Source of the DNA: Geosiphon pyriformis uo1
Lineage: Eukaryota > Fungi > Glomeromycota
Assembly (NCBI GenBank): GCA_016748015.1
Contig: JAAOMT010000094.1
Location: 281,917 to 345,916 of the forward strand
Reading direction: 5' to 3'
DNA: 64,000 nt
In this document: in pieces, positions 1,847 to 55,800 of the stretch
How positions within the stretch are numbered: the first letter of the stretch is position 1
How the letters are laid out: every line of letters starts with the position of its first letter
Made by a program: the position numbers and the translations under genes
Notes under the pieces: model-generated
What the model was told of the DNA's origin: nothing
Databases searched by the model: none
Seen by the model: the letters and a program-made list of their open reading frames with translations, nothing else

Positions 1847-1887
1847 GTCAATCAAAGATACCTCTGTTTTGGGAATAGTGTATTTAT

Positions 1888-14000: not shown

Positions 14001-17000
14001 AATTTGAGAGGTTTTATCTTGAAAAATGTTGCTATGTATGATCCCAATTTCTAATTTATTTAATAAAACAATGGAATAGTTGTTGGGATTGTAGAAAGTA
14101 ACTCGAAATTTCTTTATTTCTTTTGGGATATAGATATTTGGAATTGAGATTTCATGTTTTAAACAGATTTGTTCATTGAATTCAAAGATTTGTTGAGTAG
14201 TAGTAGGTTTTAAGCAAGTGTAGATTTTGTGATGTTCTCTAAAAGGTGAAATGGTAATTGGTTGTGGAAGTTGAAAAATCTGGTAAGATTTACTTTGTGT
14301 ATTAAGAGCCATATTTACTGGAACTGTGAATTGTTCAGTTGAACCAAAATCTTGAGTTTCTTTTTCACTTTTTCTTAGTTGTTCTCTGTTGTTAACTGAT
14401 TGTAAACTTGAAATGTTGATTAAGAGTAAGTAAATTGCTTGAGCAATTTTCTCTGCATGCTCAATTTTAAATGGTTTTTCAGTTTCATTCTGTAGCATAA
14501 TAGTAATGTTTTCAGTGTATTCTGCATCTATGACTTCTCTTCTAATATTGATTCCTTTGCTTGCCAATGATGATCTGAATGCAATTTGAACTATTGCTCT
14601 AGGTGGAATTTCAAGAGTGATTTTGAGATTGATTTTTGTCAAAAACTTTAATTGAAGAACCAAAGTATCTTTTTCTAGATATTTTAAATCATATCCAGTA
14701 TTAATTTTGTGTGCTTTTTCTGGTCTGATTCTTTGGCCATGGTTGTCAAAATATTTAAGTTATAGGGGTGGTTGATTTTTAAGAAGATAGATATGAATAG
14801 TTGATAGTTCTTTTACCCATTCAGATACTCCAAATTCGATTTCATTTTTATCATTTTCATCTGGCAGGGGAATGCTAAGAGCATAGTATTCTAAACACCA
14901 TTGGTCATCACAAGGCATAACACATTCTTTACATAATTAAATATTCATTTGCTCTAATCATTGAATTTAAGCTTCTTTGGTTGAGTACATATAACTTGTA
15001 ATTTGGTGGTAGGTTTCTACTTTATCTTCATAATCAAATTCAGCTAACTCTATAGTATACTCAATGTATTCAGCTTCTTTTATTTGGTGGACATCTTCTT
15101 GAGTAGCTCTATTGATTAATGCCATTGTTAAGTTAAAAATCATTTTAGCATCATGAGGATAATAGTACAGTTTATTAAGAGCACTATTATATGCTGCATT
15201 GAATGAGGTTCTTCTTCTCACTTTTTCTGAAATTGATAAGACATATTGAGAGATTTGATCACATACTCCTCTTTTTATTGCAACATCAATCCAGTTGTAT
15301 TCTTTTGGTAGCATATCTCCAAATGTAAGACAAGATGTGTTGTCCTATTTTCCATTTTTTTTTGGGGATTCAAATCGTTCTCTATGGCATGCTTTGCAGA
15401 AGTAACAGGTATGAGTTTCATATTTTTTTTTTGGGGAAATACAGGCTTCTATAGATGAAAGCTTCTTCTTGTAGTTTTTGCATTTTAGTGGAATATATAG
15501 TGGTTTTTTTATGGTTCTGGTGTAAAATATCTAACTTTCTTCCATTTTTTTGATTTTTTAAAAATCTCTTGTTTTGTTTCCTCAGCCTAATTAGATGTTG
15601 ATCCAAGAGCCATGTAGGTTTCAGTAAATGGCATTTCTTTCTTCTCCTCAAAATCGAATACTAGGGCTTTTTCTGAACATTTGTTAAAAGTACCACAAGT
15701 AATAGGTACTATGGTGTATTGTTCTTAGTATTGGGATGCATTCATGATTAGAACTTTGACTGGAATAATGATTTTATCAATGGTAAATAAGAAGTTGTCA
15801 ATTTTTCTTATTGGAGTTTTTTTTATGCCATTAGCTGTAACAATTACAGTTTGGACTGGTCTGTCAACAGTTCTTTGAAGCTGTTGCATTAATTGGTAGA
15901 TAATAATACTTCTAGCTAATCTACTGTCTAGAATTAATTGGATGGGTTTTCTTTTTACTATAGCTTTAGTGCATATAGCAGTGATAGCTTTTTGTTCATT
16001 TACTGTTGTATTACTAAGCAAGAATAGTGATTCATTTGTCTCAAATTCGAATAAAAATATATCTGATAGATTGGCATTTTGGGCAATTTGAGCTGGTAGA
16101 ATTGTATTGTTGGAAGAGTTTGATCTTAGTGCTGTAGCTTTACCTTCAGAAAGTGCAGTTTGTTGAAAATCTGATTCTTCTTGCATTGTTAAATAATTGG
16201 GTTGAGTGTAAAACTGAGTGAGTTTTTGTTAAACAGAATTTCGGAAAACTAGTTAATTATTGGAATTAGATCTGTTGTTGTTTGTTAAAAAACGATTTTA
16301 TGATGTAAATTGGTTTTGTTGAACCAATCTTCTGGTTGGTACTTAATATTGTTGAGTAAATTGTATCTGATATTGCTGAATTGGTAAAGATTGCTGATAT
16401 TGTTGCTGAATTGGTTGTGAAGCTAATTGATAGTAACTGTTTTGATTTTGTGGTCTTGGTGGGTAATAAGTTGGTAATAGGGATTGGTAGTAAGATTGTT
16501 GTAATGAAAAGTAACATTGATTACTCCTGTTTTGTTGGTCTCTTTGCAATTTCCTGCAATCTCATTTCCAGTGTCCTGAGATTTCACAATAATAACAATT
16601 TTGAGGTTAGTTGTTAGATGGTAATCCAAAGTTGTTTTAGTTGCATCATTGTGGTGATTGATATTTTTGTGGTTGTTGCTGCTGTTGTTGTTGGTTTGTA
16701 AAATAGTTTTCAATCTTCTTTGTGAGTTGGTCTATCTTTTTTTCAGCTGTTAAGCTGGTTTTTCTAATAGCAAGATTTACAAATTTTGTGTGGTTGGCTT
16801 CTTCTATAGCCATTTCATAATTCTTTGCATGTTGAATAGCAGTGACCAAATCTTTAGGTGAATGGGAATGCACTTTTTTTATGAGTTTGTTTTTTAATCC
16901 AGCAATAAATTGATCCAAAATTTGGGCATCAGAATAGTAGTCATTGGTTTCCAATTGGTGAATTCTTCTGAGAAGTTTGTTGAACTTCTTTAGGTAGGTC

Positions 17001-18288: not shown

Positions 18289-19151
18289 TGTTACTCATAG
18301 AATATAGGAAATATAGTATTATTAGTCAGTAGATATTAGCCAATCAGATGTAGATGTAATAAATGTGAAATTCTAAGATTTCTTTCAAAGGAATTGCAAG
18401 ATTCCAAGAATTTCAAGATTCCCTGATGAGAAATCGCAGAATTCCAGAATTCCAGGATTCTTCTCATCAGAAATTGCAGGATTCCAGAAATTCCAGAATT
18501 CCTGGTGCAAGGAATAGAGAAATTGAGGAATCTCAATTATGTATATATAGCAGTAGGATTAAAAGCTAAAAAAACAAACTTCTCAGTTTAGATTTAATCT
18601 AAACAACTCTCTAAATCACAATTATCTAATAAATAACTATTTGTTATCTCAAAAACTACGTCTACTATCAACTATTCATGTTGATAGTAATTGATACTTA
18701 ACCACATGGGAACAATAGCTCTTAATCATGGCTATTAATGGGATACTAAATTTGCAAATTGTTTTGGCTTATTGCTTTATATTTTGTTATTTTCTTTATT
18801 TTCTTTGATTTTGTTATTGTACACTAACCAATTGATTAAAAGTGCTGATTACTGATGTCAAAGATTGCCTGGTAAAAGACTCCTGCAAGTGGGTAGGACA
18901 CATACAGAAGATATGGATTACTTACTAGAGGATTGCCAGCCACCAAGCCAAGAAAAGAATTGACAGACTTGTGAATCTGGGAAGCTACAGATAAAACAAC
19001 TATTGAATCTCTGTCCATTATACAAAGGACTCATTTGGAAAACCTTTAGATACCAATCACTTAAAAATATTATCAACAACACAAGTAGCTTTTGAGCACC
19101 AAGTTATGAATTTGTTATTTGACCTGAGACCCCAAATAATCAACTGTAACA
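18289..19151 (+). repeat. Element E 5' LTR (863 bp)
   Basis: TGTTAC...GTAACA; GAATTCCAG-type array ~18367-18535; TATATATAG ~18543; followed by the PBS. Confidence 0.95.
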
Positions 19152-19153
19152 TT

Positions 19154-19171
19154 TGGTGCTCCCTGTGAGGT
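19154..19171 (+). promoter_or_regulatory. PBS of E, TGGTGCTCCCTGTGAGGT
   Basis: 2 nt after the LTR end. Confidence 0.92.
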
Positions 19172-19213: not shown

Positions 19214-22200
19214 GTGGCAGAATCAAAAAATATAAGAGCAAACCATTTAGGATTTGCAAAATCTTTATTTCAATACTATTGTCAATACTTGAGATTAAAC
19301 CACAATCATATATCCACCAAATCAGCCTTTAATTTCTATGTCAACAAAAAGATTTTCTCTTTGTTAGGAACACCAGTGAATACTGAATCAGCAAGGGAAA
19401 CTTTCTACAGAGAATTAATTCAAAACACCAACTTACTAATAAATCATAATTTCACATTCATTATTACTGAGATCAACAAAGAAATTGAACATCACATCCA
19501 ACAAAGATATCCAATTACATATGCTAATAAAGACAAAGGAAAACTACAAACACCAGCAGTAACTCCTAGAAAGATACAACTACCTACTTGGAAGAAGACA
19601 AGAGTTGAATCACCAACCAATCTATTTTATTACTATACACTCAGAAGCACCATCAACATTTTATTAACAAGCATGTCCACATCAAATGCAACTTCAGTAT
19701 TTGGATGATTCTCATTCTAAAGTAAACAAAAGAAAACAGAATTATTAGGACCATATGGCAAATACTTTGAAGGATTTAAATTACAATCACCAATGCCATC
19801 AGGAATTCGATCACCGCCGCCTCAATCAGACTTTGGAACCACTACCCCATGAGAACTATCTGAAGAAGAAGAGGAAAAAGAGTTGGAAGATCAAGAATTT
19901 ACTTACCAGAACCCGATCACTGAAAACTCGGAAGTCAAAACACCAAATTTTCAAACCCAGCAAAATTTAAAGTTAGAAAACCCAGAAATCAAAACTCCGA
20001 ATATTTAACCACCACCAAATCAGAACAATCAGAACCCCAATCTAATTAATCAACCAGACTTACCTCCTGTTATCGTCATTAACCCACCACTAGTTGAACC
20101 GATTAGCCAGCCACCACAACAACCACACCAGCAGATTTAACAGCCACTAGTATCACTTCAACAACCACCGCAACCCAACTTAGATTCAATGGCATACACA
20201 CCAATAGCCAAACTCGAGAAATTCACTGGCAAAGAGGACAATGCTTAAGCCTGGATCAATGATGTCACCAAAGCAATTACCACCAATAACTGGGATGATG
20301 CCAGAACCATACAAGTCATCCCCTATTTTTTTAAAAACATGGCAGACTCTTGGTATCACAGTCTAGCCCAGAAATCTCAAAACTTTAATGCCTTTAAGTT
20401 AGAATTTTTGAGGTATTTTAGTAATAACAACAGCATCAACCGCTTGGCAAGTACTTTCACCACCATCAAACAAGGAGACACAGAAGCAGTCATCACTTAC
20501 TTGAGATGCTTCCATAGAAATCTGCACCAAATTCAGGCAATCCAAGCTGAATACTTTACAGTACCACAGATCTTGAACCAATTTATCTGAGGATTGTGCA
20601 GTAGTATCCTCCAGCAAGTACGTTCAATACATCCAGTTGATCTCCCAACTGCCGTGACTCATGCCAGAGATTTTGAAACTGCTTAGTTAGAAGCTAACCA
20701 TGCCCAAGCTGTGAATTTAGTAATAAATAGATCATCTGACCTGGATTCCAAGCTAAAACAATTTAGTGACAACATCAATTAGAAACTAAAGGGCTACTTA
20801 GCTAACAATCATGCAATTTATCAGCCATCCCAATGACATAATGATTTAAGAAACATGAATCGTTTCCAGAATCAATCACATCCAGGATCATCCACTAATT
20901 AGTCACGACAGCCAGAAATGTGTGTCTGCTACAACTGTGATAAACAAGGGCATATTAGGACAAACTGCCATACTTATAGCAACTCACGATCAGAAAATCA
21001 TTATTGAAACCCTGATTGCCAGTTTTAGACTCCGAATTACCAATCCAATCAAAAGCAATATCAAAATGCTTACCTGCCTATAATGCAGCAACCAATTTAT
21101 TAGTCAACAATATATCAACCACCAATTTATCAGCTGCAGCCATCAACAATTTATTAATTGCAGCCACAAGTTATTTATTAGCCACAGCCTCAAGTAATTT
21201 ATCAACTCCAACAAGTTCAAATGCCGCACCAAAACTCAGTTACAATAACATCAGAAAATCCAAGATCCAGAATTACCCAAAACTGGAGATCAGCAATAGT
21301 TGTTAATCAACTGATCCCCAGTTCATTAGGCCAACAATCAGAATCTCGTCAGCAGGATTTGGGTATCAGTTCCATCCAAAACCCAAATTCCCAGAACTAT
21401 TTAAGTCTCTTGGTTATCCCAGAAGATGTTACCTCTAACAATCCAGAACTCAATCAACAACCAACAATACTTACCAACAACATCCCACCAGTAATCATCA
21501 CCAATGACAAGTCTTTAACAGCCATCTTTCCATTTGAACTCGAGGAAGTTATGTCAGTTCTCTTATTTAGTAAAGCAGCTCTAGAAGAAAAACCCATTAC
21601 TGTTATGTACACTAATGCGAAAGTTGATGGCCATTCCATCAAGTTAATTCTTGACAGTGATTCAGCAGACAGCATCATCACACAACAACTCATGGATCAA
21701 TTAGGTCACTGAGTTGATCAAGCTGTCAGCACTAGAATCATCACTGCCGATGGCACCACAAAAACGCCTATTGGTGAAATTGATGACTTCCCAATTAAAG
21801 TTAATGGTATCATTACTTCTATCAAAGTCTTGGTGATGGAAGTGACCCAATACCAAGCACTAATGGGCAATGATTAGTTGTCTAAAAACAATGCTATCCT
21901 TGATTGGACCACACAGGAGCTCCAGCTCAGCCAAAATAGCCAACACACGCGAGTATTGGCAACATGTGGCCATTTCAAACCTAACAATGTCATGACATCA
22001 GCACTGCTTATTGATCTCGGGAAAGAAAAACTAAAGCCTACTTAGGAGGTGTACCAAGTATCATGGGCCAATGTCAACCACAATGAACTGCCACCAATAC
22101 TTGCCTGGGACAACAATAACAATAGAAAGGAGGAACAAGGAAAAAAACCTACCTGTGGAACCACTATCAACACTTGGACTGACAACAAAGACCACCATGA

Positions 22201-25200
22201 CCTACCACTAATACTATCATGGAATGACAACCCTAAAAGAAAGCAAAAAGAAGAACTTATCTGGAAAACGGACGACCTAACCTAGACCAACAACAATGAA
22301 AAAGAACCAACACCAAGCTGGGAATGGGAAGAAAACAACAAAGGGAAAGGAAAGGCGAAAGAAGAAAAGCCACTGCCAACAAACCCGTATACTTTCTATC
22401 AATACACAACACCACAACAATACATCTATTGCCAACTCAAACTAGTGTGCATCAATTGTGGCAAAAAATTGTTGTTAATGGGCATATGCTGTGATAATGA
22501 TAAAGAATATCAGATGACAACCAAGCTCTATTGCCACGCATGTCTTATTGAATGTTTTGGAAGACCAAAACGAATGGGAAAATGGAATAATACACCATGT
22601 TTAGTCTGTAAAGAAACTCTTCTTGATGAAAGAATATGGAATGACATTCCTGAGAGAGGAGGAACGTGCAACATTTCCTGTCAATACACGATCCTCATTA
22701 GTGACTAGATTGAAAAAGGGACACCAATAGAAGCCATTTGGAGAAGAACTGTACAGTGATTGGACAGTTGTCCACACGATGATGATGAATTATGGCGAAT
22801 GACAATTGCCAACATTAAAGGTGCATCACTAGAAGAAATCAGAACAATTAAAAACAACCCACTAGAACCTATTGAGCTTGACTGGGATGCAGAGCCAGTT
22901 ATAAATTTTCTGGAACCAGAAGAGTTCCATAAACACTACCAAAACTTGGCACCCACTAGAAAAGAGCAAGAACAATGGCTAGCATAGTTGAATACCAGAC
23001 TGTGTTGCCATTGTTTAATTCTCAGTGACTTTGAATATTGTGACAATTGTGACTTCATTTACAATCTACCACCACGTATGATCTACATGATCCCCAAAGA
23101 TAAAGAACCAATCAGCAGCTGTGCATTGGAGTCAGAATTACTGTTCGATCCCAATTCAAACTCCAACAACAATGACGACGAGAATAACAATTCCAGCTCC
23201 ATTCAAAATAGCAATGACAATAACAACAATATCAACACAGATTCAAACTCCAACTCAAACTATGAACAATATATCGTGCTTTCTGATCTTACCAAGGAAC
23301 AAGAATTGAAATGGTTCAGTGATAATAATGAAGGTATTATGCCAGAATGTGCGCATGATACTGATGCCAGATTTGATTTGAGGTATCCAGGAAAAGATGC
23401 CATCAAATTGGAACCACATTTATGCATCTGCATTGATCTGAAAATAGTGCTGGAAATCCCAACAACAACAATGGTTCAACTAACATCCCAGAGTAGTTTA
23501 GCAAAAAAGAGATTAAAATAAGAGGAGGAATAATTGATGCAGAATATGTAGGAAATATCATTGCCATGCTACAAAATAACTCAGAAAAGGCCTATATAAT
23601 AGAGCCAAACAAAAAGATAGCACAGACAATATTCTTACCTTTGGTTAAGATAGCTCAGTTAGTACTAGTGGGAAACAGGGAAGAGTTAGGAATAACAGCA
23701 AAAGGGATACAGGGATTTGAGTCAACAGATAGAATAGATGTACCAGTTAATATGGCAGAGAAAAAAATTGTTGGCCAAGAAGAAATTATCTCAACCAGTC
23801 AAGCTATTTCCATTCCACCATATAGCCAGTACATGCTAGCAATAGAAAGGAAAAAAAAGGAACAAGAACAGATTTTTGAAGCTGAAGCAAATCTTTGTGA
23901 ATCAGGAAAGATTAGACTAATCAATCTCCACATACCAGCCAAAAGCTATAGCTGCATAAAAATTCCTATCTATAACAATACTGGCAATGTCATCAACATA
24001 CCAGAAGGAACTACTATCAGATATTTAACCACAGAAATAGAAGACCAACCACCAAACCCCATTCCAGACTTTCCACAACTTTGTGAATATGTTGACATCA
24101 CATCATAAACAATCTATGAATGAGATGAATGTTATTTGCTCCAATCAGAACAATTAGAACAAATGAACATGGGAAATCTAGACCCACTACAATGTATGCA
24201 GCTCAAAATGTTATTTAACAATTTTAATGACATCTTTGTCAGCGAAAATGAGTTTGGCCGAACTGATATTATCCAGCATCAGATCAAGACTGGAAATGCA
24301 ATGCTAATCAAACAGCAAGCATACAGAGTACCACCAACCAGCCATGAAATCATTTGTCAAGAGATTAACTGAATGCTTGACAATGGATTACTTCAGCCAT
24401 TAATGAGCCTATGGTTGTCACCAGTAGTACTTGTCCATAAGAAGAATGGAAAAATCCGATTTTGTGTGAACTACAGGAAACTCAATGGTGTAACTCATAG
24501 AGACAGCTATCCAATTCCACAGATACAAAAACTATTCGATGCTTTTGGTGGAAACAAATAGTTTTCAATGTTAGACTTAAATAATGGTTACTGACAAGTA
24601 GCCATGGATCTAACTAACAAAGAAAAAACAGCATTCACCACAAGAAAGAAAAATTTTGAATTTGAAGTCATGTCATTTAGCTTGATGAATGCTTCAGCCA
24701 CATTTCAACAGCTAATAGAAATAGTATATACCAGCTTATTATGGAAATCAGTAGTAGTTTATCTGGACAACACCAATGTGTTTTCAAAAACCTTTGATGA
24801 CCATTTATATCATCTCCAACAAGTGTTCAAAAGACTAAGATGAGCAGGATTAAAATTGAATGCAACAAAATGTTTCTTTGGCAAAACAGAACTCAAGTTC
24901 TTGGAGCATATAGTGAGCAAAGATGGCATTAAGATGGATCCAGATAAGATAGAGATAATAAAGAAATTTCCAGTACCAACCAACATGACCAAGTTAAAAT
25001 CATTCTTGGGATTTGCAAGCTACTATTGCCACTTTATCAAAGATTTTTCTAAGATAGCACAGCCATTCAATCAGCTCCAAACCAAGAATGTAAAATATGA
25101 ATGGACTAAAACCCAGCAAAAAGCTTTTGACATCTTAAAAAAAAGTTTATTTAAGCTCTGGTATTGATCTATCCAGATCATAGCAAATCATTCATTATTA

Positions 25201-27007
25201 TCACTGATGCATCAGGCCAAGCATTGGGAGCAGTATTATCTTAGAGAAGACCAGATAGAAAAGAACATCCAGTTACATATGTCAGCCGAGGTTTAATACC
25301 AGCCAAAAAGAACTATGGAACACCAGAATTAGAACATTTAGCAATTTATTGGGCAGTTATGAAATAAAAAAAATACTTAAGCCAAAAGTTTGAGATATAC
25401 ACAGACCACAAAGGATTGACATCACTTCAAAAACAAGAATTTGGAGACAGAAGACAGTCAAGATGGAAAATGACACTTTCGCCATATACTTATACCATAT
25501 ATTATAAAAAAAGAAAAGACAATGGAAATGCCAATGGTTTGTCATGAATGAGACAAATCTAAGAACATTTTGACCCAAAAATATAATAAAACTAGAACAA
25601 TACCAACAAAAAATAGAACAAAAGATGAACACACAAAAATACCAACAACTTTAACATTATATAAATACTTAACAGTTTAAGGAAAAATTATCTCAACTGA
25701 AACAAAAGAGGATCAAACAACAATCAAAATATTTTATCACTCATCAAAATAGACTTTATCGGAAGAACAGAAAAGATTCAGATCAATTAATCAAAGTAAT
25801 TACAGAACTGAAAAAAGAGACAATACTGTTTAACATGCACTCAGATCCAACTGCAGGACATTTTCATAAAGAAGCAACCATAGAAAGAACCAAAAAGAGA
25901 TACTATTGGCCATCAATGTATCCAAATATCATACAATATGTGCAAAATTGTAATACTTGTCAAAGAAAAGAAGGAACAAGACCTAGCAAACCATTAAGAC
26001 CAATTAAAGTGGGACAACCATTTGACTGCATTGGAATCGACTTAGTTGGATCATTGACAATTACCAGCAGAGACAACAGATATATTGCAGTAGCCATGGA
26101 CTATCTTACTAAATGGCCAGAAGCAAAAGCAATTCAAAAAGCGGATGCAGAATTCATTGCTGAATTTGTTCATTAAGAATTAATCTGCTGACATGGATGT
26201 CCAAAAGAATTATTGTTAGATCAAGGAACTCACTTTGTGAACAGAACACTAGTAGAACTAAGTCAAAGATTTGGAGTTAAGAGACTATTGTTATCACCAT
26301 ACCATCCACAAACCAATGGACTAGTTGAAAGATTCAATAGAATACTGTGTGAAGCAGTTGCCAAGATCAGTCAAAAAAACCAAAATGAATGGGATTTGTT
26401 TATACCATCAATACTATTTACTTATCAGACAATGAAGCAAGACACTACACAAACAACACCATTTGAATTAGTATACAGTAGAACAGCAACACTACCAGTT
26501 GAGATAGAAGTCAACACTTATCTAACAGAACCAATAATTGTAAACAATTTTCAGGAAATATTACTAAAAAAAACATCTGATTTGATGAAAACTCTAAAAA
26601 ACAAGCAATGAAGAGCAGCTGATAACATTAAAAAGGCACAAGAGAAACAAAAAAAGAGGCACGATAACCAACTACTAGACAAACCAGTTGAATTCAAGAT
26701 TGGAGACAAAGTACTTTTATATCATACTAAAGCGGAAAAACAATGGAATGGGAAATTTAACCCCAAATGGGACAGACCATTTCACATAGAAGAAATTCTA
26801 GGAAATAGAGCTTACAAATTAAGACTGGACAACAAAATTTTAGCCAAAGCAGCACATGGTAATCAACTGAAACCATATTACCAGATAGCATCAGCATTTA
26901 CCAATAACATTCCACAACTGAAAGTACAAAGAATACTAATCCAACCAGATAAGATTCTACAAGACCTAGAACCAATTATTATCATTAACAATAACACGTC
27001 CAATTGA
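19214..27007 (+). pseudogene. Element E gag-pol, originally a single ORF of roughly 2600 codons
   Basis: ORF pieces at 19214, 20339, 21221, 22049, 22445, 22760 and 22988 share one frame. Contains MAYTPIAKLEKFTG, CYNCDKQGHIRTNC, LILDSDS, dUTPase, YLDN, HSDPTAGH..CNTC and PYHPQTNGLVERFN. Confidence 0.93.
23340..23730 (+). pseudogene. dUTPase domain in E pol
   Basis: AHDTDARFDL, SQSSLAKK, GGIIDAEYVG, KKIAQ and AKGIQGFEST are motifs I-V; 1-nt frameshift near 23515. Confidence 0.92.
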
Positions 27008-27703: not shown

Positions 27704-28566
27704 TGTTACTTATAGAATATAAGAAATATAGTATTATTAGTCAATAGATATTAGTCAATTAGATGTAGATGTAGTAAATATGAAATTCCAGGATTTCTCT
27801 TAGAGAAATTGCAGAATTCCAGGAATTTCAGAATTCTCCAACAAAAAATCGCAGAATTCCAGAATTCCAGGATTCCTCTTATCAGGAATCGCAAAATTCC
27901 AGGAATTCCAGGATTCCTGGCACAAAGAATAGAAGAATTGAGAAATCTCAATTATATATATATAGCAGTAGGATTAGAAGCTGAAAAGACAGATCTCTCA
28001 GTTTAGATTTAATCTAAGCAACTCTTCAAATCACAATCATCTAATAAATAACTATTTGTTATCTCAAAAACCATGTCTACTATTAACTATTTATGTTGAT
28101 AGTAATTGATACTTAACCACATGAGAACAATAGCTCTTAATCACGGCTATTGATGGGATACTAAATTTGCAAATCACCTTGGCTTATTGCTTTATATTTC
28201 ATTATTTTCTTTATTTTCTTTGATTTTGTTATTGTGCACTAACCGATTGATTAAAAGCACTGATTACTAACGTCAAAAATTGCCTGGTAAAAAACTCCTG
28301 TGAGTGGATAGGACACATACAGAAAATACGGATTACTTACCAGAGGATTGCCGGCCACCAAGCTGAGAAAAAAATTGACAGACTTGCGAGTTTGGGAAGC
28401 TATAAATAAAACAATTATTGAATCTCTGTTCATTATACAAAGGACTCATTTGGAAAACCTTCAGATACCAACTACTTAAAAATATTATCAACAACACAAG
28501 TAGCTTTTGAGCACCAAGTTACAAGTTTGTTATTTGACCTGAGACCCCAAATAATCAACTATAACA
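27704..28566 (+). repeat. Element E 3' LTR (863 bp)
   Basis: Direct repeat of 18289-19151; preceded by PPT AAAAGGAGAGAATAA. Confidence 0.95.
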
Positions 28567-37445: not shown

Positions 37446-40400
37446 GTGGTGACTATTGGAACAATAGGAAAGAACCACTCCTCATATGGAAAAGCACTAT
37501 TTCAATACTTTCAAAAAGACCTAGAAATACCAGCAGAAACCACTTATACAGAAAGTGATTTTTGTAACTATATTAGTGCAAAAATTGACTGCTTGTTAGA
37601 CCACGCAACTGATACAGGAAGACTTGGAGAACAAATCCATCAAAGCTTACTAGGGTATTCAACAACCATGACTACCTGAGCAATTGCTAAAACTCTGTGC
37701 ATATTTGATATAGACATTAAATATTACGTGGCACAATAATTCCCTTAAGTACAACAACCAGTGAAATTCGATCTTGAGGAATATGAAAACAAATCCAACA
37801 ACCCCATAACTGCCCAAGCCAAGTCCACAGTCAACAAGAAACCAAGGGTCCTCTCCCCAATAACTCCATCATACCATCAGACACCCCAAAGTAGAATTGT
37901 ATTCAACCCACCTCTGGAAACCCAGTCAGAAACACCATGAACTCCTGGAAATCCACACCCTTGAAATCAACACAGTTAGACCAAATCACTAGGAGAATAC
38001 AGATCACTGTTTGGAAATCTTACCCCAGTAGCCAGTCAAATAGAAAAAAACCCATCGACTTGGGAACAGCCACCAGCACAAAACCTAGCAGAATTAGCAT
38101 CTCCCCTGATGGAAGAAACAGCTATCTTACAACCTATTGGTTCAAGTGACAAAGAAAAGCAACTAGCATTAGCATCCGGAGAACACTCAAATATGCAGAC
38201 ACCAATCCCTTTAAACATAACCAGTAACACCCCACCCATTAACCGGATCATGACTTACTGGGATATCGCTAAATTGGAAAAATTCTCTGGTGAAGAAGAT
38301 AATGCATATTCTTGGATTGCGGATGCCAAGAAAGCAATTACTGCTAATGGTTAGAACAACAACCACACAATTCAGGCACTGCTGTTCTTTTTGACCAAAA
38401 CCACCAATTCGTAGTACCAGAGCCTGGCAGAGAAGCCTACCTCCTTTACCAAGTTTAAATTCGCATTTCTGCAATACTTCTGTGACCCCAATACATTAAT
38501 TTGATTGCAGAATCAATTCAGCATAATTAAACAAAAAGATCATGAAACAGTAACTACTTATTTTGAATGATTCAATCAAATCCTGCATTAAATATTAGCT
38601 ATCAAAAGGGACTACTACACCACGGCATAAGTTCTTAATCAATTCATTAAAGGATTGTAGAGTAGTATTCTAAGATCCATAAAACCCCACCATTTGACCA
38701 GTTTACAAGATGCTGTCGCTCTTGCTCGTGATTTTGAGTCTGCAAAACAAGAAGCAAATCATACCCAAACTGTTAATTTAGCTATTAATGAAATCTCTGA
38801 CATCGATACAAAGATAACCCAATTGAGTGAGAAACTAATTCAGAAAATTGAGGGATTTTTAGCCAGAACTACAGGAACTTACCAACCACCCCAATGGAGA
38901 GAAAATAACAACAACAGCAGATACCCACAGCAACAGAACCATCAGCAACAGCAACAACCTTGGAGATCCAATCTTCGCAACTGTTACTACTGCCAGAAAC
39001 TTGGACACTTTGCCCGTGACTGCAGAAGGAAGATTATGGACCAAAATCAAGGAAACCCATATCAGCAACCCAGATATCAGCAAAACATGGTACCCCAATA
39101 TTCCATACCTCAGAATCAACCACCCCTATATACACAACAAGTCCCATACACTCAACCACCACCCCAGAATTATTATCAACCACCACCAATGACACAAACA
39201 ATCCCTTACTATCAAACTTCCCCTTACAGCCCATCTAGACCTTGAGCTATACTATAATCAGAGATGGAGGAATTCCAACAACAATCAGGTGCAAACCAAC
39301 AGTGAATTGTCTTGACCAATTCCTTGTGGTCCTGCCCAATTTCAACTAACACCAACTGGATACCCAAATCAAGCTTCCTATTTCAGTCTTATGGAAAACC
39401 AGAGTTTTGATAAATCTACACCTGTGGAAAAGGGGAATATAGAACAAATCTCTCAATCTTCCAAGCAAACAAAAAGCAATATTTCATCAGCCACCATTAT
39501 TGAAGACACCACCCTAGCTGCCATATTTCCTTTTGACATTGATAATTTGAACATCCATAGCCTTTTTAGTGGAGCAGCCATCAATCAGAATAAACCAATA
39601 ATGGCCTTATACACTAATGCCAGAGTCGGAGGAATAGACATTAAATTAATCCTGGATAGCGAATCAGCCAGTAGCATAATCACAAAGCAGCTCATGGACC
39701 AACTAGGTCACTGAGTAGACCATGCTGCTACCACCCAGATTATTACAGTAGATGGAAACACAAAAACCCCAATAAGAGAAATTGACAACTTCCCTTTCGA
39801 GATTAATAGAATCCAAATTCTTACCAAAGTACTCATCATAGAAGCTACTCAATATCAAGCTCTAGTAGGAAATGACTGGTTGTCAAAAGCCAATGCTACT
39901 CTTGACTGGAACACCCAAGAACTTCAACTCATGTTCAACAGACAGCATGCCTGAGTTTCAGCTACGTGTAGACATTTTAAAACCCAATGTACCGAGGAAT
40001 CCTTTATTGAATTCAAAGACACATCAATGCTACCAACCATTGAGACCTATCAAGTTTCATGGGCAGATGATTATCAAACTGAACTACCCTCACCACCAAC
40101 CTGGGAAGAAAAAAGAAAAAGCAGAGCCAAAGAAGAACCCCAATTATCATCACTAGGATACGTAACCTTGGACCAAAGAAACTTATTTTACCAACCCCCA
40201 AGACTAATATGTGTTGATTATGGAAAAAAACTATCCACTATGGGCGCATGTATTAGGAACAACAAAGAATGGCCCACCACTACCAAATACTATTGCAGAC
40301 TTTGTTTACTGGAAAGATTTGGACAACCAAAACGACAAGGCAAGTGGGACAACACGCCGTGCCTTGCATGTGGCAAAATCTTGCCAGATAAAAGACTCTG

Positions 40401-43400
40401 GAATAATATGCCTGGCAGAGGAAGAACATGTGACGAGGCTTGTCAATACACCATATTAATCAACAATTGGATATGAAAGGGAACTCCCATTGAGGATGCT
40501 TGGAAATGAGCACTCAACAGGCTGGACGGTTATCCACACAATGACCATGAAATCTGAAGAATAGCAAGCACCAAGGCTGAAGGTGCCATGCCCGAAGAAA
40601 TACAAGAAATCAAGGACAACTCTTGAATGCCCGAATATAATAGACCCAACTACTCCAAGGATGATTTTTTTAGAATCAATATTAGGAATTGGTCCCAACT
40701 CACGAAGAACAGAAACAAAGGTTGGCTTATTTGAATACCAAACTGTGCGATCACTGTTTGATCCTCTGTCACTTCCAGTACTGCAACAAATGTGATCTCA
40801 TATTCAATCTGTCTCCAAGAATACTGTTTCCAATCACTGAACTACTTGAGCCCAAAGAAGAGATATTGATCACCGAGAACATGTCATTTCAAGATCCAAC
40901 TGAGGATACTAAAACAGAACAGTATCTCGCGTATTCTGACCTATTCAAAGAACTAGAGCTAAAATAGTACAGTGACAATGAGGAAAGAATCTGCCCCAAA
41001 AGAGTACATAACACCGATGTCAGTTTTGATCTATAATACTCCGAACAATCACCCATCATTATAGCCCCACATTTTTTTGTAAAAATAAATCTTAAGATAG
41101 CATTAGAAATTCCTGTTAGTACAATAATACAAGTTGCCTTTCAATCTAGTTTAACCAAAAAAAGAATCAACATAAAAGAAGGAATTATCAATGCCAGTTA
41201 CACGGAAAACATCATCATAATGCTACAGAACAATTTGAACAGACTCTACAAAATAGAATCACAAGAAAAGATTGCCCAAGCTATCTTCCTACCCCTAATC
41301 AAAATACCCCAATTAATCCTGGTAACAACCCAAAAAAAGTTAGGCCTCACTGCCCAAGGAATCAACAGATTTGGATCAAGTGGAAAAGGAAACGTACCAG
41401 TTAATTTCACAGAAGAAGACAGTGACCAGGTAGAATTTATCAACACCGACACTGTCATCTCTATTCCTCCATACTGACAATACATTTTCAAGGTGAATTA
41501 AAAGATCCAAGATCAAGCCCTGTTATTTGAAGCCAGTCCTAAAATCTGTTCCCTAGCTAATATTGCTAATCTATATCTACTGGCCAAAGCCTATAAACAC
41601 TTCAAAATCTCCATCCACAACCTAACAGAAGATGTCATTGAAATCTCCGAAGAGACTCTCATCAGTTCCATATCTGCAGATATTCAGAATCCTGAAAAAC
41701 CCTAGTCCATTCCAGATTTCACACAATTATTCTTATTCTGTGACATTACCTCACAAGTATAGAATTTGCCAAAAGAAAGTTACTTGTTCACACCAGAAGA
41801 AATCAATAAATTGAATTTAGGAAATTTAAGTACCCTGCAACAAATGCAACTCAAAGTTTTTCTGAATCAGTATGCTGATGTCTTTGCTAGCAAAAATGAG
41901 TTCGGACACACTGACATTATGAAGCATCAGATTGATACAGGAGATGTTCGACTGATTAAGCAATAAGCTTACTGCATACTCCCATCTGGCGATAATTTAA
42001 TTATGCAAGAAGTGCAACAGATGCTTGATAATAGCCTAATCAAAGAATTGTTAAGCCCTTAATCCTTACCAGTAGTCTTGGTTACCAAGAAAAATGGAAA
42101 AGTGCAATTCTGCATAGATTATTGAAAACTAAATAGTGTCACACGAGGAGATAGTTATCCCACTCTCTTCATCTAAGAAATTCTGGACAATTTAGGAAAA
42201 AAGAAATGGTTTTTGTCATTAGATTTAGCAAGTGGTTACTGGCAAGTTGAAATGGACTCCAAAGACAAAAAAAAAACAGCATTTACCACTCGAAATGGAA
42301 ACTTCGAGTTTAATGTAATGTTTTTTGGACTTTGTAATGCTCCTGCCACATTTCAATGCCTGATAGATGTAGTATACAAAGAAATTCTTTGGAAATCAGT
42401 AGTAGTCTACCTAGATGACACAAATGTGTTCTCCAAAACATTTAAAGACCATTTGCTCCACCTGCAACAAGTCTTCAAACACCTTTGTAGTGCCGGATTG
42501 AAACTCAATCCTAAGAAGTGCTTCTTTGGAAAAACCAAGTTAAAATTCCTAGAACATGTAATCGGCAAGGATGGAGTTAAACCCGATCCAGATAAAGTAC
42601 AAAAAGTCAAGAATTTTTCAGCCCCAATCAACCTCAGAGAATTACGAGGATTTCTAGGATTTGCAGAATATTATTGTCAATTTGTTAAAGGTTTCTCGAA
42701 CATTGCAAAACCACTTCATCAATTGTTGTCCAAATACGTATCATACTTGTGAAAAGAAGATCAACAGAAAGCATTTGACTATCTCAAGCAGCAATTGATC
42801 ACATCTCCAATTCTGATTTACCCAGATTTCACTAAATGGTTCATTGTCGCTATGGACACCTCAAAAAATGCTCTAGAAGCAGTCTTATCACAGATAGAAC
42901 CAGACAATAGAGAACATCCAGTTGCCTATGCTAGTCGCAGCACTAGCCCAGCAGAAAAGAATTACAGCACAACAGATCTGGAATGTCTCGCCATTTATTG
43001 GGCTGTACAGACTTGGAAACATTATCTCAGTCAACCATTTGACCTATATACCGACCACAAAAGACTTATTTGGTTACTTAACAATCCACAATTAGAAGGA
43101 AAATATGCAAGATGGAGTACTTATCTACAACAATTTCCACTCAAAGTCCATTACAAGGAAGGATCCAAGAACACCAATGCCAACAGTTTGTCGAGGATGC
43201 CACAAATCTAATTCCAGACCCATGGACACACTCACTTATCAACAACTACATCAGTACTTATTGACACTACACTTCAAGAAGATATTATCTTAACAGAAAC
43301 AGAGTACCATATGAAAACAAGCCCAAAATTATTTTATTCAAGACAACCAACTATATTAATAAGAATGCTGAAACCACCCCAACCCACAATGACTAATCAA

Positions 43401-46455: not shown

Positions 46456-49400
46456 TCCTCAAGTATTATTGAAAGTGTTTAAAAGTCCAAATGACTGCAA
46501 CAGCTTCTAATTTAGTTGATTCATATTTGAGTTCTGTTGGCTTTAGTGTTCTATTGGTATAGACAATGACTTGCTTCTGGCTATTTTCATCTAGTTGTAA
46601 CAGAATGGCACCAAAAGCTATATGTAAAGCATCAGTGGCTAGTTGAAACTATTTGTTGAAGTCTGGATAAACAAGAACTGGGGCTGTTGTTAATTTTGTT
46701 TTGAGAGTTTCAAATGCTTTCTGTTATTCTTCAGTCTATTTGTATGGCACGTTTTTGTTAGTAAGATAATTGAGTGGTTTGGCAATTTTTGAGAATTTTT
46801 TGATGAATTTTTGATAGTAAGAAACTAATCCCACAAATTCTCATAGTTCTGTGGTATTTTTGGGAGTTTGAAAGTTTTTGACAGCACTGATTGTTCCAGA
46901 GTTTGGTTTGATTCTATCTTTGCTAACAATGTGTTCAAGAAAGATTAAACTTGTTTTTCCAAAGTGACATTTCTCAATATTCAATTTTAATTCTGTTTTT
47001 CATAATCATTGAAAAACTTCTTACAGGTAGATAAGATAAGCCTCAAAGCTTGGGGAGTACACATCAGTATTATCAAAATAGACAACTACTGATTGCCACA
47101 AAAGTCTTTCATATACAACATTCATAAGTTATTGGAATGTTGCTGGTGCATTGCAGAGTCCAAAAAGCATAACATTGAACTCATAATTTCCTCCTTGGGT
47201 GGTAAATGCTGTTTTGGGTCGATCTTTTGTGTCTATTTCGACTTGCTAGTATCCACTTTCTAAGTCTAAAGTTGAGAAGAACTTGGCTTTTCCTAGAGCA
47301 TCTAATATATCATCAATTTTTGGAAAAGGGTAGACATTTCCAATTGTCATGCTGTTGAGCTGACAATAATCTACACAGAATCTGATTTTTCCATTTTTCT
47401 TTTTAATAAGAACTACTGGTGAGGCTTATGAACTTTTTGATAGTTGAATTAATCTGTTATTGAGCATTCTTTGAACTTTTTCTCTGATAAATTAGTGGTT
47501 GGCAGATAACACTCAATAAGCTTGTTGACATTTTGGTAGAGCATCTTCTGTGTGGATCTGATGTTGAATAATTTTTGTTTTTCCAAGATTATTGTTGTCT
47601 TTTGCAAATATATCTGCAAATTCAGCTATTAGCTGTTTTAATTGTCTTTGTTGTTGGGGTTTTAAGAGACTCATGTTGATTTGAGAGAGTTTTTCTTCTA
47701 AAAGATGGTAGTTTTCAGTAGTAGGAATAATGTTTGGATTTAGAAGTAATATATATCTTACAATTTCGATAAAATTAGAGACCATTTGGGGGTTTTCATC
47801 TTGAAAAATGTTACTGTATATGATTTCAATCTCTAATTTGTTCAATAAGACAATAGGATAATTATTGGGGTTGTAAAATATGACTCAAAATTTTTTCATT
47901 CCTTTGAGAATATAAACATTTGGAATTGAAATTTCATGCTTTAAACAAATTTGTTTATTGGCTTCAAAAATTTGTTGGGTAGTGGTGGGTTTTGAGCAAG
48001 TGTAAATTTCTTGATGTTCTCCAAAAAGTGAAATAGTGATTGGTTGGAGAAGTTGAAGAATCTGGTAAGATTCATTCTGTGCATTGAGAGCTATATTTAC
48101 TGAAACTGTAAATCGTCTAATTAAACCAAAACCTTGCATTCCTCTTTTATTTTTTCTCAATTGTTCTTTGTTATCAACTGATTGTAAACCCAAAATGTTG
48201 ATTAAAAATAAGTAAATTGCTTGGGCAATTTTCTCTGCATGCTCAATCTTGAATGGTTTTTCAGTTTTATTCTGTAACATGATAGTGATGTCTCCAATGT
48301 ATCTTGCATCTATAACTTCTTCTCTAATGTTGATTCTTTTGCTTGCCAATAATGATCTGAATGCAATTTGAACCATTGCTTCAGGTAGAATTTCAAGAGC
48401 AATTTTGAGATTGATTTTTGTTAAGGACTTTGGTTGAAGAACCAAAGTATCTTTTCCTGAATATTTTAGATCATATCTAGCATTAATTTTGTGTGCTTTT
48501 TTTGGTCTGATTTCTTGGCCATGGTTGTCGAAATATTTAAGTTGTAAGGTTGGTTGATTTTCAAGAAAATAGATGAAGGTGGTTGGTAATTCTTCTATCA
48601 GTTCAGATACTCCAAATTCAATTTCATTTTTATCATTCTTATCTGGCAGAAGAATGCTAAAAACATAGTATTCTAAACACCATTGGTTATCACAAGACAT
48701 AACATATTCTTTACATAATTAAATGTTCATTTGCTCTAATTGTTGAATTTGAGCTTCTTTGGTAGGGTATATATGACTTGCAATTTGGTGGTAGATTTCT
48801 ACTTTATCTTTATAATCAAATTCAGCTAATTCCATAGTATACTCAATATATTCAGCTTCTTTCATTTGGTGGACATTTTCTTGGGTGGCTCCATTGATTA
48901 ATGTTATTGCTAATTCAAAAATCATTTCAGTATCATGAGGATAGTAATACAGTTTGTTAAGAGCACTGTTGTATGCTGTATTGAATGAGATTCTTCTTTT
49001 GACTTTTTCCGAAATTGATAAAACATATTGGCAGGTTTGGTCACATATTTTTCCTCTTATTGCAATATCAATCCAGTTGCATTCTTCAGATAGCATATTT
49101 TCACATGTAAGGCAAAATGTGTTATCCCATTTTCTACTTCTTTTTGGAGATCCAAATCGTTCTCTATGGCATGCTTTACAGAAGTAGTAGGTGTGAGGTT
49201 TATATTCTTTTTCTGGGGAAATACAGGCTCCCATAAATGAAAGTTTCTTTTTGCAATCTTTGTATTTTAGTGAGATGTATAGTGGTTTTTTTTATGATTC
49301 TGATGTGAAATACCAAACCTTCTTCCATCCTCTTGGTTTTTTAAAAATTTTTTGTTCTGTGTCCTCAGTCCAATTGAATGTTGATCCAAGAGCCATGTAG

Positions 49401-52875: not shown

Positions 52876-55800
52876 CAATAGTACCTGGCAAATTCCAAGA
52901 ATGCTCATAGTTCAGTTAAATTGGTTGGTATTGAAAAGTTTTTGACTATTTCAATCTTGTTTGGATTTGTTTTAATGCCATCTTTGTTTATGACATGTCC
53001 CAAAAACTTGAGTTTAGTTTTTTCAAAAAAACACTTGGTTGTATTTAGCTTTAATATAGCTTTTCTTAGTCTTTCAAACACTTATTGGAGATAATATAAA
53101 TGATTATTGAATGTCTTGGAAAATATATTTGTGTTATCTAAGTACACAACTACTGATTTCCATAGTAGTTTAGTGTAAACAATTTCCATTAGTCATTGGA
53201 AAGTGACTGGTACATTCATTAAGCCAAATGGCATTACTTCAAATTTGAAATTTTCTTCTTTAGTTATGAATGTGGTTTTCTCTTTGTCATCTAAATTCAT
53301 GGCTACTTGCCAATAACCACTATCTAAATTCAGTGTTGAGAACTATTTCTTTCTTTCAAAAACATTGAATAATTCTTGGATTTTTAGAGTTGAGTAGTTA
53401 TTTCTTTTTGTTACTCTATTAAGTTTTTAGTAGTCTATGCAAAAGCAAATCTTTCTATTCTTCTTATAGACTAGTACTACTGATGATAATCATAGACTCA
53501 TTGATGGTTGAATTAATCTGTTGTTTAGTATCCGATTGATTTCCTGTTAGATGATTTCATGGCTGGCTGGTAGTACTCTGTATGCTTATTGTTTTATTGG
53601 CATCATATCTCCAGTTTTGATCTGATGCTAAATGATATCAGTATGGCCAAATTTATTTTTACTGGCAAAGATGTTATTAAAGTTGTTGAGTAACATCTTA
53701 AGCTGCATATGTTGAAGTAAGTTTAAGTTTTCCATGTTTATTTGTTTCAATTATTCTGGTTGGAGCAAATAATATTTGTTCTATCTGTAAATTGTTTGTG
53801 ATGTAATATCCACATATTTGCAAAGCTGTAAAAAATCTAAAATAGGATTTGGTGGCTGTTTTTCAATTTCAGTGCTTAAATATCTAATGGTGGTTCTTTT
53901 TGGTATTTCTATGATGTTTTTTGTTGCATTGTAAATGGAAATTTTGATATGGTTCTTGTTTTTGGCTGGTATATAGAAATTGGTAAGTCCAATTTCTCCT
54001 AATTTGCAAATGGTTGGTTCCGCTTCAAAAATTTGTGCCTAATTTTTCATTTTTCTTTCTATGATTAACATATACTGGTTATATGGCAGAATAGAAATTG
54101 ATTGGCAGGTAAAAATAATTTTTTCTTTGTCAATAATCTCTTCCTCTGCCATATTGACTAGTATATCTATTCTACTTATAGATCCAAATTCACTTATCCC
54201 TCTTGCTGTTATTCTTAATTTTTCTCTGTTTTCTACTGAAACTAACTGGGCTATTTTTATTAGAGACAGAAATATTGTCTGTGCTATCTTTTCCAGTACT
54301 ATTTTGAGATCAATGTAGGTGTGTGAATGTAGTTCCAATTTGATGGCTTTTTTTTCTGAGTATCTTAGATCAAATCCTGTATTGATATTATGTGCACATT
54401 CTGGCATGATATCCTCATTATTGTTGCTTAACTATTTTAGTTCTTGCTTCTTAGAAAGGTCAAAAAGCATGATATATTGTTCTAGGTTTGAATTATTGTA
54501 ATTATTATTGTCAATTTGAATGGAGCTAGAACTATTGTTATCATTATTGTTATTTTTGAAGTTTAAATCAGGATTAAACATTGATTTCAATTTTGATGTG
54601 CAGCTGCTGATTGGTTTTTTTTTTTCTAGGATCATGTAGATTATGTGTATTAATGGATTGTAAATAAGATCACACTCATTACAATATTAAAAGTTACAAG
54701 AAATCAAATAGTGGTCACATAATTGGATATTTATTTTTTCCAACCATTACTCTTGTTCCTCTTGAATGGATGCTAAATTCTGGTAATGTTCATGAAATTC
54801 TTCTGGGCCTGTTTCAATATCTAGAAAGGCATCAGGATTGGAAATAAAAACAACTTCAACTGGTTTAGATGGATTGTTTTTTATTTCTAAGATCTTATTA
54901 AGCGAAGTGTTTTCTATCTTGGTGTTGGCCATTTTCCAAATCTTGTCTTTATTGTGTAGATAACTGTCCAAGGGAGAGATTGCTTGATGCCAGACTGCAG
55001 TTATTGGGATTTTACAATTCATCCAGTCATTAATGAGAATTGTGTATTAATATGATGCATCACAGGTTTCTTTTTGACCAGAAATGTCATTTCATATTCC
55101 TTCATTGAGCAATTGTTCACCACAAGCAAGACATAGTTCATTGTCCTACTTGCCTTGGCATTTTAAATAGCCATAGTGTTTATGATAGCATGATTTGCAA
55201 TAGTAATAGGTTCGTGTTCAGTAGTCTTTATCAGATACAATTCAAGCTTCCATAAAGAACAACTTTTTTTTGCAATCCTTGTACTTAAGTGGAATATAAA
55301 GTGGCTCTGGTCAGGTGTTAATCAAATAGAAACTTCTCCAGCCACTGGTAATTTTGTTGGTAGTATCTTCTTGTGGCTCATCATCTTCTTTTTTTTTTCT
55401 TTTGTTATCTCAATACAGTATTGGCAGTAATTCATTGTGGTTAGTGTCAGCCCATGAAACTTGGTAGGCTTTCCAGATAGGTTTCTTTTTTTCTTTTTCA
55501 AATTCAATTAGTGATGCAGTTGTAGTGGTTTTGAAGTGTCCACAGGTAGCTGGTACTCTAGTATGTTGCTCATTTTGCCTAAGCTGTAGCTCTTGAGTGT
55601 TCTAGTTAAGCACAACATTGGTTTTAGACAGTCAGTCATTACCAACAAAAGCTTGGTACTGGATGGCTTCTATGACTAAAACCTTGATTGGTATAATGAT
55701 ACTATCAACCTTGATGAGAAAATTGTTGATTTCACCAATTGGAGTTTTGGTAGCTCGATCAGCAGTAATAATTCTGGTGCTGACAGCATGATCAACTCGG

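What the first reader, a model, noticed from the sequence alone, without database searches (positions are those of the whole stretch)
22445..23060. Unrecognised ~200-aa triple Cys-cluster domain between protease and dUTPase
Seen in E: CINCGKKL..YCHAC, then GKWNNTPCLVC..GGTCNISCQY, a helical stretch with a conserved (Y/C)PHD, then LCCHCLILS..YCDNC. The same Cys spacing and the ERFGxPKRxGKWDNTPC core recur in C (~14880-15490), F (~40205-40800), D (~48660-49265) and B (~54660-55290) although neighbouring linkers diverge. Known: the PR-RT interval of Ty3/Gypsy normally has no such domain. Inference: up to three Zn sites forming a folded accessory domain (chromatin or nucleic-acid reader, or host-defence antagonist) released by PR.
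Basis: partly seen in the sequence, partly recalled or inferred. Interest (0 to 1): 0.75.

Follow-up and report, generated by a model that had tools for sequence, protein, structure and literature searches.

The report
Unnamed triple zinc-finger retrotransposon domain
Decayed jumping genes in a fungal genome carry a conserved 215-amino-acid domain with twelve cysteines, named in no database searched, between their protease and their dUTPase; it is predicted to bind three zinc ions and likely acts as an adaptor for a host protein, a modest new part of a known kind of element.

Summary
Five of six protease-bearing Ty3/Gypsy elements in the window carry the same ~215-aa domain, in frame between protease and dUTPase; the sixth lacks both domain and dUTPase. 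Twelve cysteines form three C4 clusters. Each is 82-99% Cys across 356 stored relatives, the rest almost all Tyr, the product of this genome's G-to-A decay. Synonymous sites are saturated between families while the protein is kept, and its tree follows pol: one gain, then vertical descent. Named relatives are all Geosiphon pyriformis gene models; one stop-free relative (P0240) comes from an unnamed assembly. Pfam, PHROGs, PDB and fold searches name nothing; finger 1 models like a generic treble clef. Function is untested. I favour a protein-binding adaptor (about 0.4) over a nucleic-acid tether for dUTPase (0.3). The scan noted smaller Cys/His modules at this position in another genome; none matched by sequence. 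No capture source was found. New variant of a known kind; moderate interest.

The parts
22439..23074 (+). Whole Cys-rich domain, copy E (about 212 aa, 3 in-frame stops)
22448..22543 (+). Finger 1, C-x2-C-x24-C-x2-C; modelled like treble-clef zinc fingers in relative P0240
22598..22681 (+). Finger 2, C-x2-C-x19-C-x3-C; last two Cys at the start of a predicted helix
22682..22858 (+). Predicted four-helix block with the (Y/C)PHD motif; best-modelled part (pLDDT 84-93 in P0240)
23003..23050 (+). Finger 3, C-x2-C-x8-C-x2-C; conserved but poorly modelled
21602..21970 (+). Aspartic protease of element E (decayed)
   Evidence: Pfam gag-asp_proteas E 1.6e-08
22046..22066 (+). E-x-Y-hydrophobic motif after the protease; possible cleavage site (inferred, motif defined post hoc)
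23264..23284 (+). Same motif before the dUTPase, after an Asn-rich linker; possible cleavage site (inferred)
23300..23720 (+). dUTPase of element E, frameshifted near 23500
   Evidence: Pfam dUTPase E 4.1e-10
24433..24903 (+). Reverse transcriptase core of element E
   Evidence: Pfam RVT_1 E 2.7e-23
25799..26878 (+). Integrase of element E (H2C2, rve, SH3_Tf2-1; no chromodomain hit)
18289..19151 (+). 5' LTR of element E
27704..28566 (+). 3' LTR of element E, 89% identical to the 5' LTR; all 94 differences are transitions
14862..15497 (-). Domain copy C (8 of 12 ligands still Cys)
40198..40817 (+). Domain copy F (11 of 12 Cys; frameshift near 40640)
48644..49279 (-). Domain copy D (9 of 12 Cys)
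54648..55298 (-). Domain copy B (9 of 12 Cys)

Best explanation
This is a conserved twelve-cysteine accessory domain inside the Pol polyprotein of a dUTPase-bearing fungal Ty3/Gypsy lineage, predicted to fold as two treble-clef zinc fingers plus a helical block and a third small finger, and likely working as a protein-binding adaptor that recruits a host factor for the element. Shown: position, conservation, selection, vertical descent with pol, death of all five window copies. Predicted: the fold of residues 1-145. Inferred: three Zn sites; one gain before the families split; release from Pol by the element's protease at flanking motifs; binding of a host protein during particle assembly or reverse transcription, as the G-patch does from the PR-RT junction of betaretroviruses. 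That the domain is real and was selected: about 0.9. That it works as a protein adaptor: about 0.4.
For: Reality: 12 ligand columns 0.82-0.99 Cys, remainder nearly all Tyr, in 433 aligned pieces of 356 proteins (only well-aligned positions counted, 130-238 pieces per column); LTR differences 94 of 94 and 51 of 51 are C/T or G/A, which explains Cys-to-Tyr; all 12 Cys present in stop-free P0240 at 43% identity to its nearest named relative. Selection: pS 0.68-0.80 against pN 0.28-0.45 in 9 of 9 between-family pairs; protease pN 0.14-0.33. Descent: domain, dUTPase, protease and RT trees all separate B,E,F from C,D,P0240 (support 100, 83, 60, 95). Context: of 355 stored proteins with the domain, 152 also have the protease (upstream in 152) and 130 the dUTPase (downstream in 129). 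Fold: pLDDT 70.7, pTM 0.53; residues 1-43 align to LIM, FYVE, Rim2, GATA and ribosomal zinc fingers, Z 3.0-4.5, rmsd 1.3-3.3 A over 30-43 residues. Adaptor rather than nucleic-acid binder: the undamaged P0240 domain is net acidic, about -15 (segments +1, -1, -3, -7, -5); a shared motif lies on both sides of the domain in E, B and F. Precedent: M-PMV G-patch recruits host DHX15 (PMC11459146, abstract and section headings) and is cut off RT in vitro (PMC12817477, passages).
Against: No binding partner, zinc binding, expression or cleavage was tested. Net charge does not exclude a local DNA/RNA-binding patch, and KKL after the first knuckle and the PKRxxKW stretch are basic and kept. Treble clefs serve protein, DNA, RNA and lipid binding alike; the fold matches are tied and below the tool's noise level. 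The E-family model was poor (pLDDT 53.5, pTM 0.30) and finger 3 is below pLDDT 55 in both models. The flanking motif was defined after seeing the sequences and is absent before the dUTPase in C, D and P0240. Nei-Gojobori ratios are biased low by transition-only decay (C-D pair: domain 0.41, protease 0.62), so only the saturation contrast counts. Nearly all sequences come from one genome.
Confidence: 0.42

Rival explanations
1. Nucleic-acid-binding module that stays fused to the dUTPase and holds it on the reverse-transcription complex (works like betaretroviral NC-dUTPase), or binds the element's own DNA like a GATA-type finger pair.
For: Domain and dUTPase are present together in 5 of 5 elements and absent together in element A (one gain, so not independent cases). 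Their trees agree. Best Foldseek rows are GATA3-DNA complexes (E 0.22-0.39, not significant). Conserved basic residues in and after finger 1. NC-dUTPase resists proteolysis and binds nucleic acid (PMC1802613, abstract and Introduction). Unchecked notes from another genome report small Cys/His modules beside dUTPase.
Against: Intact domain is net acidic; no CCHC knuckle; a long, variable, low-complexity linker and, in E, B and F, a boundary motif separate it from the dUTPase; GATA spacing is not met.
Confidence: 0.3
2. Counter-defence protein: a special case of the adaptor model in which the target is the host's silencing or C-to-T mutating machinery.
For: The host process is strong: all LTR differences are transitions, in CA, CT, CC and CG contexts; CpG observed/expected 0.19-0.20. 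Zinc-binding viral antagonists of deaminases exist (Vif; PMC4531489 passages on Vif-APOBEC; its zinc site is recalled).
Against: All five window copies are heavily mutated, and domain-bearing E is no less decayed than domain-less A (LTR differences 94/863 vs 51/688; ages unknown). No similarity to any known antagonist. The domain is under purifying selection, with no test for adaptive change.
Confidence: 0.1
3. Chromatin reader that steers integration, in place of a chromodomain.
For: No chromodomain hit behind E's integrase; a few weak PHD-like rows (AtVAL2 PHD-like Z 3.4; Pfam zf-HC5HC2H E 1 in 1 of 19 members).
Against: It lies about 900 codons upstream of integrase and would be cut from it; no C4HC3 cross-brace spacing; weak rows are at chance level.
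Confidence: 0.08
4. No specific function: a spacer, or cysteines created by CpG decay (CGY to TGY).
For: CpG decay does create Cys here: mixed R/C/H columns exist.
Against: The 12 ligand columns hold no Arg/His mixture, are shared by families with saturated synonymous sites, and are intact in stop-free P0240.
Confidence: 0.04

Closest known systems
dUTPase-bearing fungal Ty3/Gypsy elements, PosPlaTy3-5 of Postia placenta (PMC2864245, passages)
   Same: dUTPase between protease and RT in a fungal Gypsy pol.
   Different: No Cys-rich domain before the dUTPase is mentioned in the passages seen; that survey concerns chromodomain-bearing elements, while E shows no chromodomain hit and has an extra ORF after integrase.
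Bdelloid rotifer Juno elements (PMC5408684, passages)
   Same: dUTPase in the PR-RT interval with an extra zinc module beside it; ORF3 after pol; no chromodomain.
   Different: Juno has one Zn knuckle after the dUTPase; here a 215-aa, three-C4 domain with a helical core lies before it. Homology not tested.
Betaretroviral NC-dUTPase fusion (PMC1802613, abstract and Introduction)
   Same: Zinc-binding module directly N-terminal to a dUTPase in a retroelement polyprotein.
   Different: NC is the element's own Zn-knuckle nucleocapsid joined by a frameshift; here gag keeps its own knuckle (zf-CCHC E 0.14) and the module is all-Cys, acidic and unrelated.
Betaretroviral G-patch at the PR-RT junction (PMC11459146 abstract and headings; PMC12817477 passages)
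   Same: Accessory module in the same stretch of Pol that recruits a host protein; model for the best explanation.
   Different: Short Gly-rich motif, no zinc; a functional analogy only.
Treble-clef zinc fingers: LIM, FYVE, GATA, eL24/TRASH, MYM (zf-FCS)
   Same: Finger 1 superposes on these at Z 3.0-4.5; finger 2 has the C-x2-C-x19-C-x3-C spacing recalled for TRASH/zf-FCS.
   Different: No sequence match to any of these Pfam families; inter-finger spacing and the fused helical block fit none. The class name and consensus spacings are recalled.

Membership tests
Ty3/Gypsy LTR retrotransposon (host element E) | Paired LTRs | tested here: met
   18289-19151 and 27704-28566, 89% identical
Ty3/Gypsy LTR retrotransposon (host element E) | Order gag, protease, RT, integrase last | tested here: met
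   Pfam hits in that order; RNase H seen in translation only
dUTPase-bearing fungal Gypsy (PosPlaTy3-5 architecture) | dUTPase between protease and RT | tested here: met
Chromovirus | Chromodomain at the integrase C-terminus | tested here: not met
   No Chromo hit at E<=0.1 in 25799-27000 or 27061-27690 of E; decayed copy, other elements not scanned
Chromovirus or other named Gypsy clade | RT phylogeny with reference elements | not tested
   No reference RT set was fetched
LIM domain | Two fingers two residues apart, His as third ligand (recalled) | tested here: not met
   Fingers 18-20 residues apart, all-Cys; no Pfam LIM hit
LIM / FYVE / GATA / eL24 treble-clef fold class | Knuckle, hairpin, helix with two ligands at the helix start | tested here: inconclusive
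   Model residues 1-43 match many such chains, Z 3.0-4.5, tied and under the noise level; consistent, not decisive
GATA zinc finger | C-x2-C-x17/18-C-x2-C (recalled) | tested here: not met
   Spacings are x24, x19 (C-x3-C) and x8; no Pfam GATA hit
TRASH / zf-FCS (MYM) finger | C-x2-C-x19-22-C-x3-C spacing (recalled) | tested here: met
   Finger 2
TRASH / zf-FCS (MYM) finger | F-C-S motif and profile match | tested here: not met
   T/M/I/V-C-D/N here; no such family listed at E<=10 for 19 members
PHD / RING finger | Cross-brace C4HC3 or C3HC4 ligand pattern (recalled) | tested here: not met
   No His ligand in pattern; best Pfam rows E 1 and 1.5 in 1 of 19 members each
NC-dUTPase fusion | CCHC knuckles, basic nucleocapsid | tested here: not met
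   All-Cys clusters; net charge about -15 in P0240
NC-dUTPase fusion | Fusion resists the element's protease and binds nucleic acid | not testable with these tools
   Needs biochemistry
Any zinc-finger family | Zn bound by the four Cys of each cluster | not testable with these tools

The most novel reading that the evidence does not exclude
A fungal LTR retrotransposon gained, together with dUTPase, its own counter-defence protein: a three-zinc adaptor released from Pol that disables the host's cytosine-methylating or deaminating machinery, a Vif-like or anti-silencing factor that helped this lineage overrun the Geosiphon genome.
Probability: 0.1. Interest if true: 0.78.

Novelty: new variant of a known kind. 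Interest (0 to 1): 0.4.

Why it matters
Fixed gains of new domains in LTR retrotransposon pol genes are uncommon, and each points to a pressure the element faced. This one was kept across families with saturated synonymous sites, in a genome reported as 41.2% LTR sequence (PMC11952901, passages). A stop-free copy (P0240) makes it testable. Practically, at least 236 Geosiphon 'hypothetical proteins' seen here carry pieces of this domain and look like gene models drawn over dead elements, so a profile of it would help clean that annotation. Without a function it is a new part, not a new mechanism.

Tried and rejected
Catalogue searches, all without a credible hit: Pfam on E and copies and on alignments of 18, 22 and 19 members (best E 0.0042, SF3A3, 22 residues, 2 members, below cut-off); PHROGs (best E 0.0095, unnamed); PDB by sequence. 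The BK-channel rows (best E 0.0043) are sums of short, non-collinear, singly insignificant pieces: rejected. Foldseek against PDB and viral models: 0 matches at E<=0.001. VIA-align: helical block nearest to the BsaWI N-terminus (Z 4.3, rmsd 3.0, 60 aligned; Z 5.4, rmsd 5.0, 66 aligned), under the noise level; fingers 2 and 3 were barely tested, so no claim of a new fold is made. A recalled likeness of the third helix region to Skp1 found no support in Pfam or PDB searches. Relatives outside Geosiphon: locus scans found none in JGI metagenomes (0 of 152 and 0 of 158 pattern matches) or IMG/VR (0 of 96); a word search with the P0240 domain returned only itself among 93 candidates. These are weak blanks. 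Element A's short Cys motif is not related (hhalign probability 0.2%). No whole genome is held, so no genome-wide count. No RNA holder listed; not evidence on expression. The ESM Atlas gave no answer and no complex prediction was obtained, so both questions stay open. A protease-based scan for sister elements was not done. Literature: searches showed no description of this domain; Repbase, GyDB, subscription journals and the supplements of PMC2864245 and PMC11952901 were not seen and could hold one.

Full report
Setting. The window is a cluster of decayed Ty3/Gypsy elements. An NCBI protein named Geosiphon pyriformis G9A89_007739 is 100% identical to window 23027-23518 over 164 residues, so the window is very probably from that fungus. 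No whole genome is held. Element E runs from a 5' LTR at 18289-19151 to a 3' LTR at 27704-28566 and encodes gag, protease, the domain, dUTPase, RT, RNase H, integrase and a further unnamed ORF. It is dead: 7 stops in 653 codons of the protease-domain frame and a frameshift in the dUTPase.

Observation. A profile finds five copies, B to F, each between protease and dUTPase. The sixth protease-bearing element, A, has neither domain nor dUTPase. The 8-ligand pattern of the first two clusters occurs 5 times against 0.03 expected in shuffles (pattern written from these copies).

Are the cysteines real ligand positions? The genome decays by C-to-T/G-to-A change: 94 of 94 differences between E's LTRs and 51 of 51 between A's are transitions. 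That turns Cys into Tyr and CpG-bearing Arg into Cys or His. In 433 aligned pieces from 356 stored proteins, counting only well-aligned positions (130-238 pieces per column), the 12 ligand columns are 0.82-0.99 Cys with Tyr as nearly the whole remainder. Other Cys-bearing columns are mixtures, and a 13th frequent Cys is Thr in P0240. P0240, a stop-free 1064-aa protease-domain-dUTPase-RT fragment from an unnamed ENA record, keeps all 12 at 43% identity to its nearest named relative. Invariant Lys, Asn, Ile and Tyr within a family say little, since this decay cannot change most of their codons; their presence across families does count.

Selection and history. In 9 of 9 between-family pairs of window copies, synonymous differences are at or near saturation (pS 0.68-0.80) while nonsynonymous ones are 0.28-0.45; the protease gives 0.14-0.33 (F contributed only its first 146 codons). 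The ratio itself is biased by transition-only decay, so I rely on the saturation contrast. Trees of domain, dUTPase, protease and RT from 6-7 sequences all separate B, E, F from C, D, P0240 (support 100, 83, 60, 95); only the order within B, E, F differs, with weak support in the domain and dUTPase trees. Inference: one gain before these families split, then descent with pol.

Distribution. All 107 hits and the 120 listed of 275 are named G. pyriformis. A full profile search of 1.84 billion representatives gave 422 hits, 150 listed. Of its 130 new ids I looked up 10, chosen mostly as the most divergent: 9 G. pyriformis and P0240. The other 120 and the 272 unlisted hits are of unknown source, so distant or non-element relatives are not excluded. 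Scans of metagenome and viral contigs found none. Of 355 stored proteins with the domain, 152 also carry the protease, always upstream, and 130 the dUTPase, downstream in 129; precomputed Pfam labels on the named hits are all retroelement families.

Structure. The E-family model was poor (pLDDT 53.5). The P0240 model is fair (70.7, pTM 0.53): residues 1-40 at 61-81, 51-80 at 77-80, 81-140 at 84-93, and 151-216 at 63 or below. The second Cys pair of fingers 1 and 2 sits at the start of a helix, as in treble-clef fingers (class recalled). Residues 1-43 align to ribosomal eL24-type chains, Rim2, FYVE, LIM and GATA fingers at Z 3.0-4.5, all tied. Nothing covers the whole domain; Foldseek has no match at E<=0.001 in PDB or viral models. 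Metal geometry could not be inspected.

How it most likely works. Being in Pol, it is made with the enzymes and would be packaged. An E-x-Y-hydrophobic motif, defined after inspection, gave 15 hits in six polyproteins; by my reading 12 lie at domain boundaries: after the protease in E, B, D, F and P0240, before the dUTPase in E, B and F, and after the dUTPase or before RT in E, B, C and D. If these are cleavage sites, the domain is freed from both neighbours in at least the B/E/F clade. The undamaged domain is net acidic, about -15 (decayed copies drift basic through Glu-to-Lys change). Both points lean away from a nucleocapsid-like tether and toward a protein-binding adaptor, for which the betaretroviral G-patch is a precedent in the same part of Pol (PMC11459146, abstract, part of the introduction and headings; PMC12817477, passages). 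I give the adaptor about 0.4, the nucleic-acid or dUTPase-tether model 0.3 (PMC1802613, abstract and Introduction), a specific counter-defence role 0.1, chromatin reading 0.08 and no function 0.04. None of these was tested.

Comparison with what is known. dUTPase between protease and RT is described for fungal, rotifer and planarian elements (PMC2864245, PMC5408684, PMC6431247; passages), and rotifer Juno adds a Zn knuckle after it. A survey of 59 fungal genomes screened for eight standard domains only and has no passage on Glomeromycota (PMC3248453, passages). The AMF transposon survey notes the LTR expansion in Geosiphon but, in the passages seen, no such domain (PMC11952901). Six literature searches showed no description; supplements, Repbase and GyDB were not seen. 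Seven earlier notes of this scan describe smaller Cys/His modules between protease and dUTPase in another genome (unchecked); look-ups by sequence and place found no look-alike of this one.

Verdict. Real, selected and unnamed in everything searched; narrow known range; function open. A new variant of dUTPase-bearing fungal Gypsy elements.

Noticed in passing
window 4700-4950 (-), element A: Element A lacks the domain and dUTPase but has a different short Cys motif (WWHGP, then C-x-C and C-x2-C) between protease and RT; no Pfam hit, unrelated to the domain by hhalign.
   Followed up: partly
window 1190-1942 (-) and about 27061-27690 (+): Elements A and E each carry an extra 210-250 codon ORF between integrase and 3' LTR; no Pfam hit. 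A's is stop-free. The two were not compared.
   Followed up: partly
LTR pairs 533-1220/7574-8285 and 18289-19151/27704-28566: Every LTR difference is a C/T or G/A transition, spread over CA, CT, CC and CG contexts, not CpG alone; suggests a RIP-like or all-context methylation-driven mutator in this fungus.
   Followed up: partly
window 19154-19170 (+): Primer-binding site starting TGG two bases after E's 5' LTR; its likeness to a tRNA-Met 3' end is recalled, not tested.
   Followed up: no
window 22070-22400 (+): E's linker between protease and domain is lengthened by imperfect repeats of an L-P-x-I-L-x-W-x-x-N-x-K unit; F, B, D and P0240 have shorter linkers.
   Followed up: no
window 23750-24100 (+) and P0240 residues 745-880: A conserved stretch of about 130 aa between dUTPase and RT has no Pfam label; it may be a degenerate second dUTPase-like fold (a guess).
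   Followed up: no
window 19250-20300 (+): About 350 codons upstream of the capsid-like region of E's gag have no Pfam hit.
   Followed up: no
P0002-P0228: Many G. pyriformis 'hypothetical proteins' lack internal blocks of the domain or switch frame, as if introns were predicted across stops in dead elements.
   Followed up: partly
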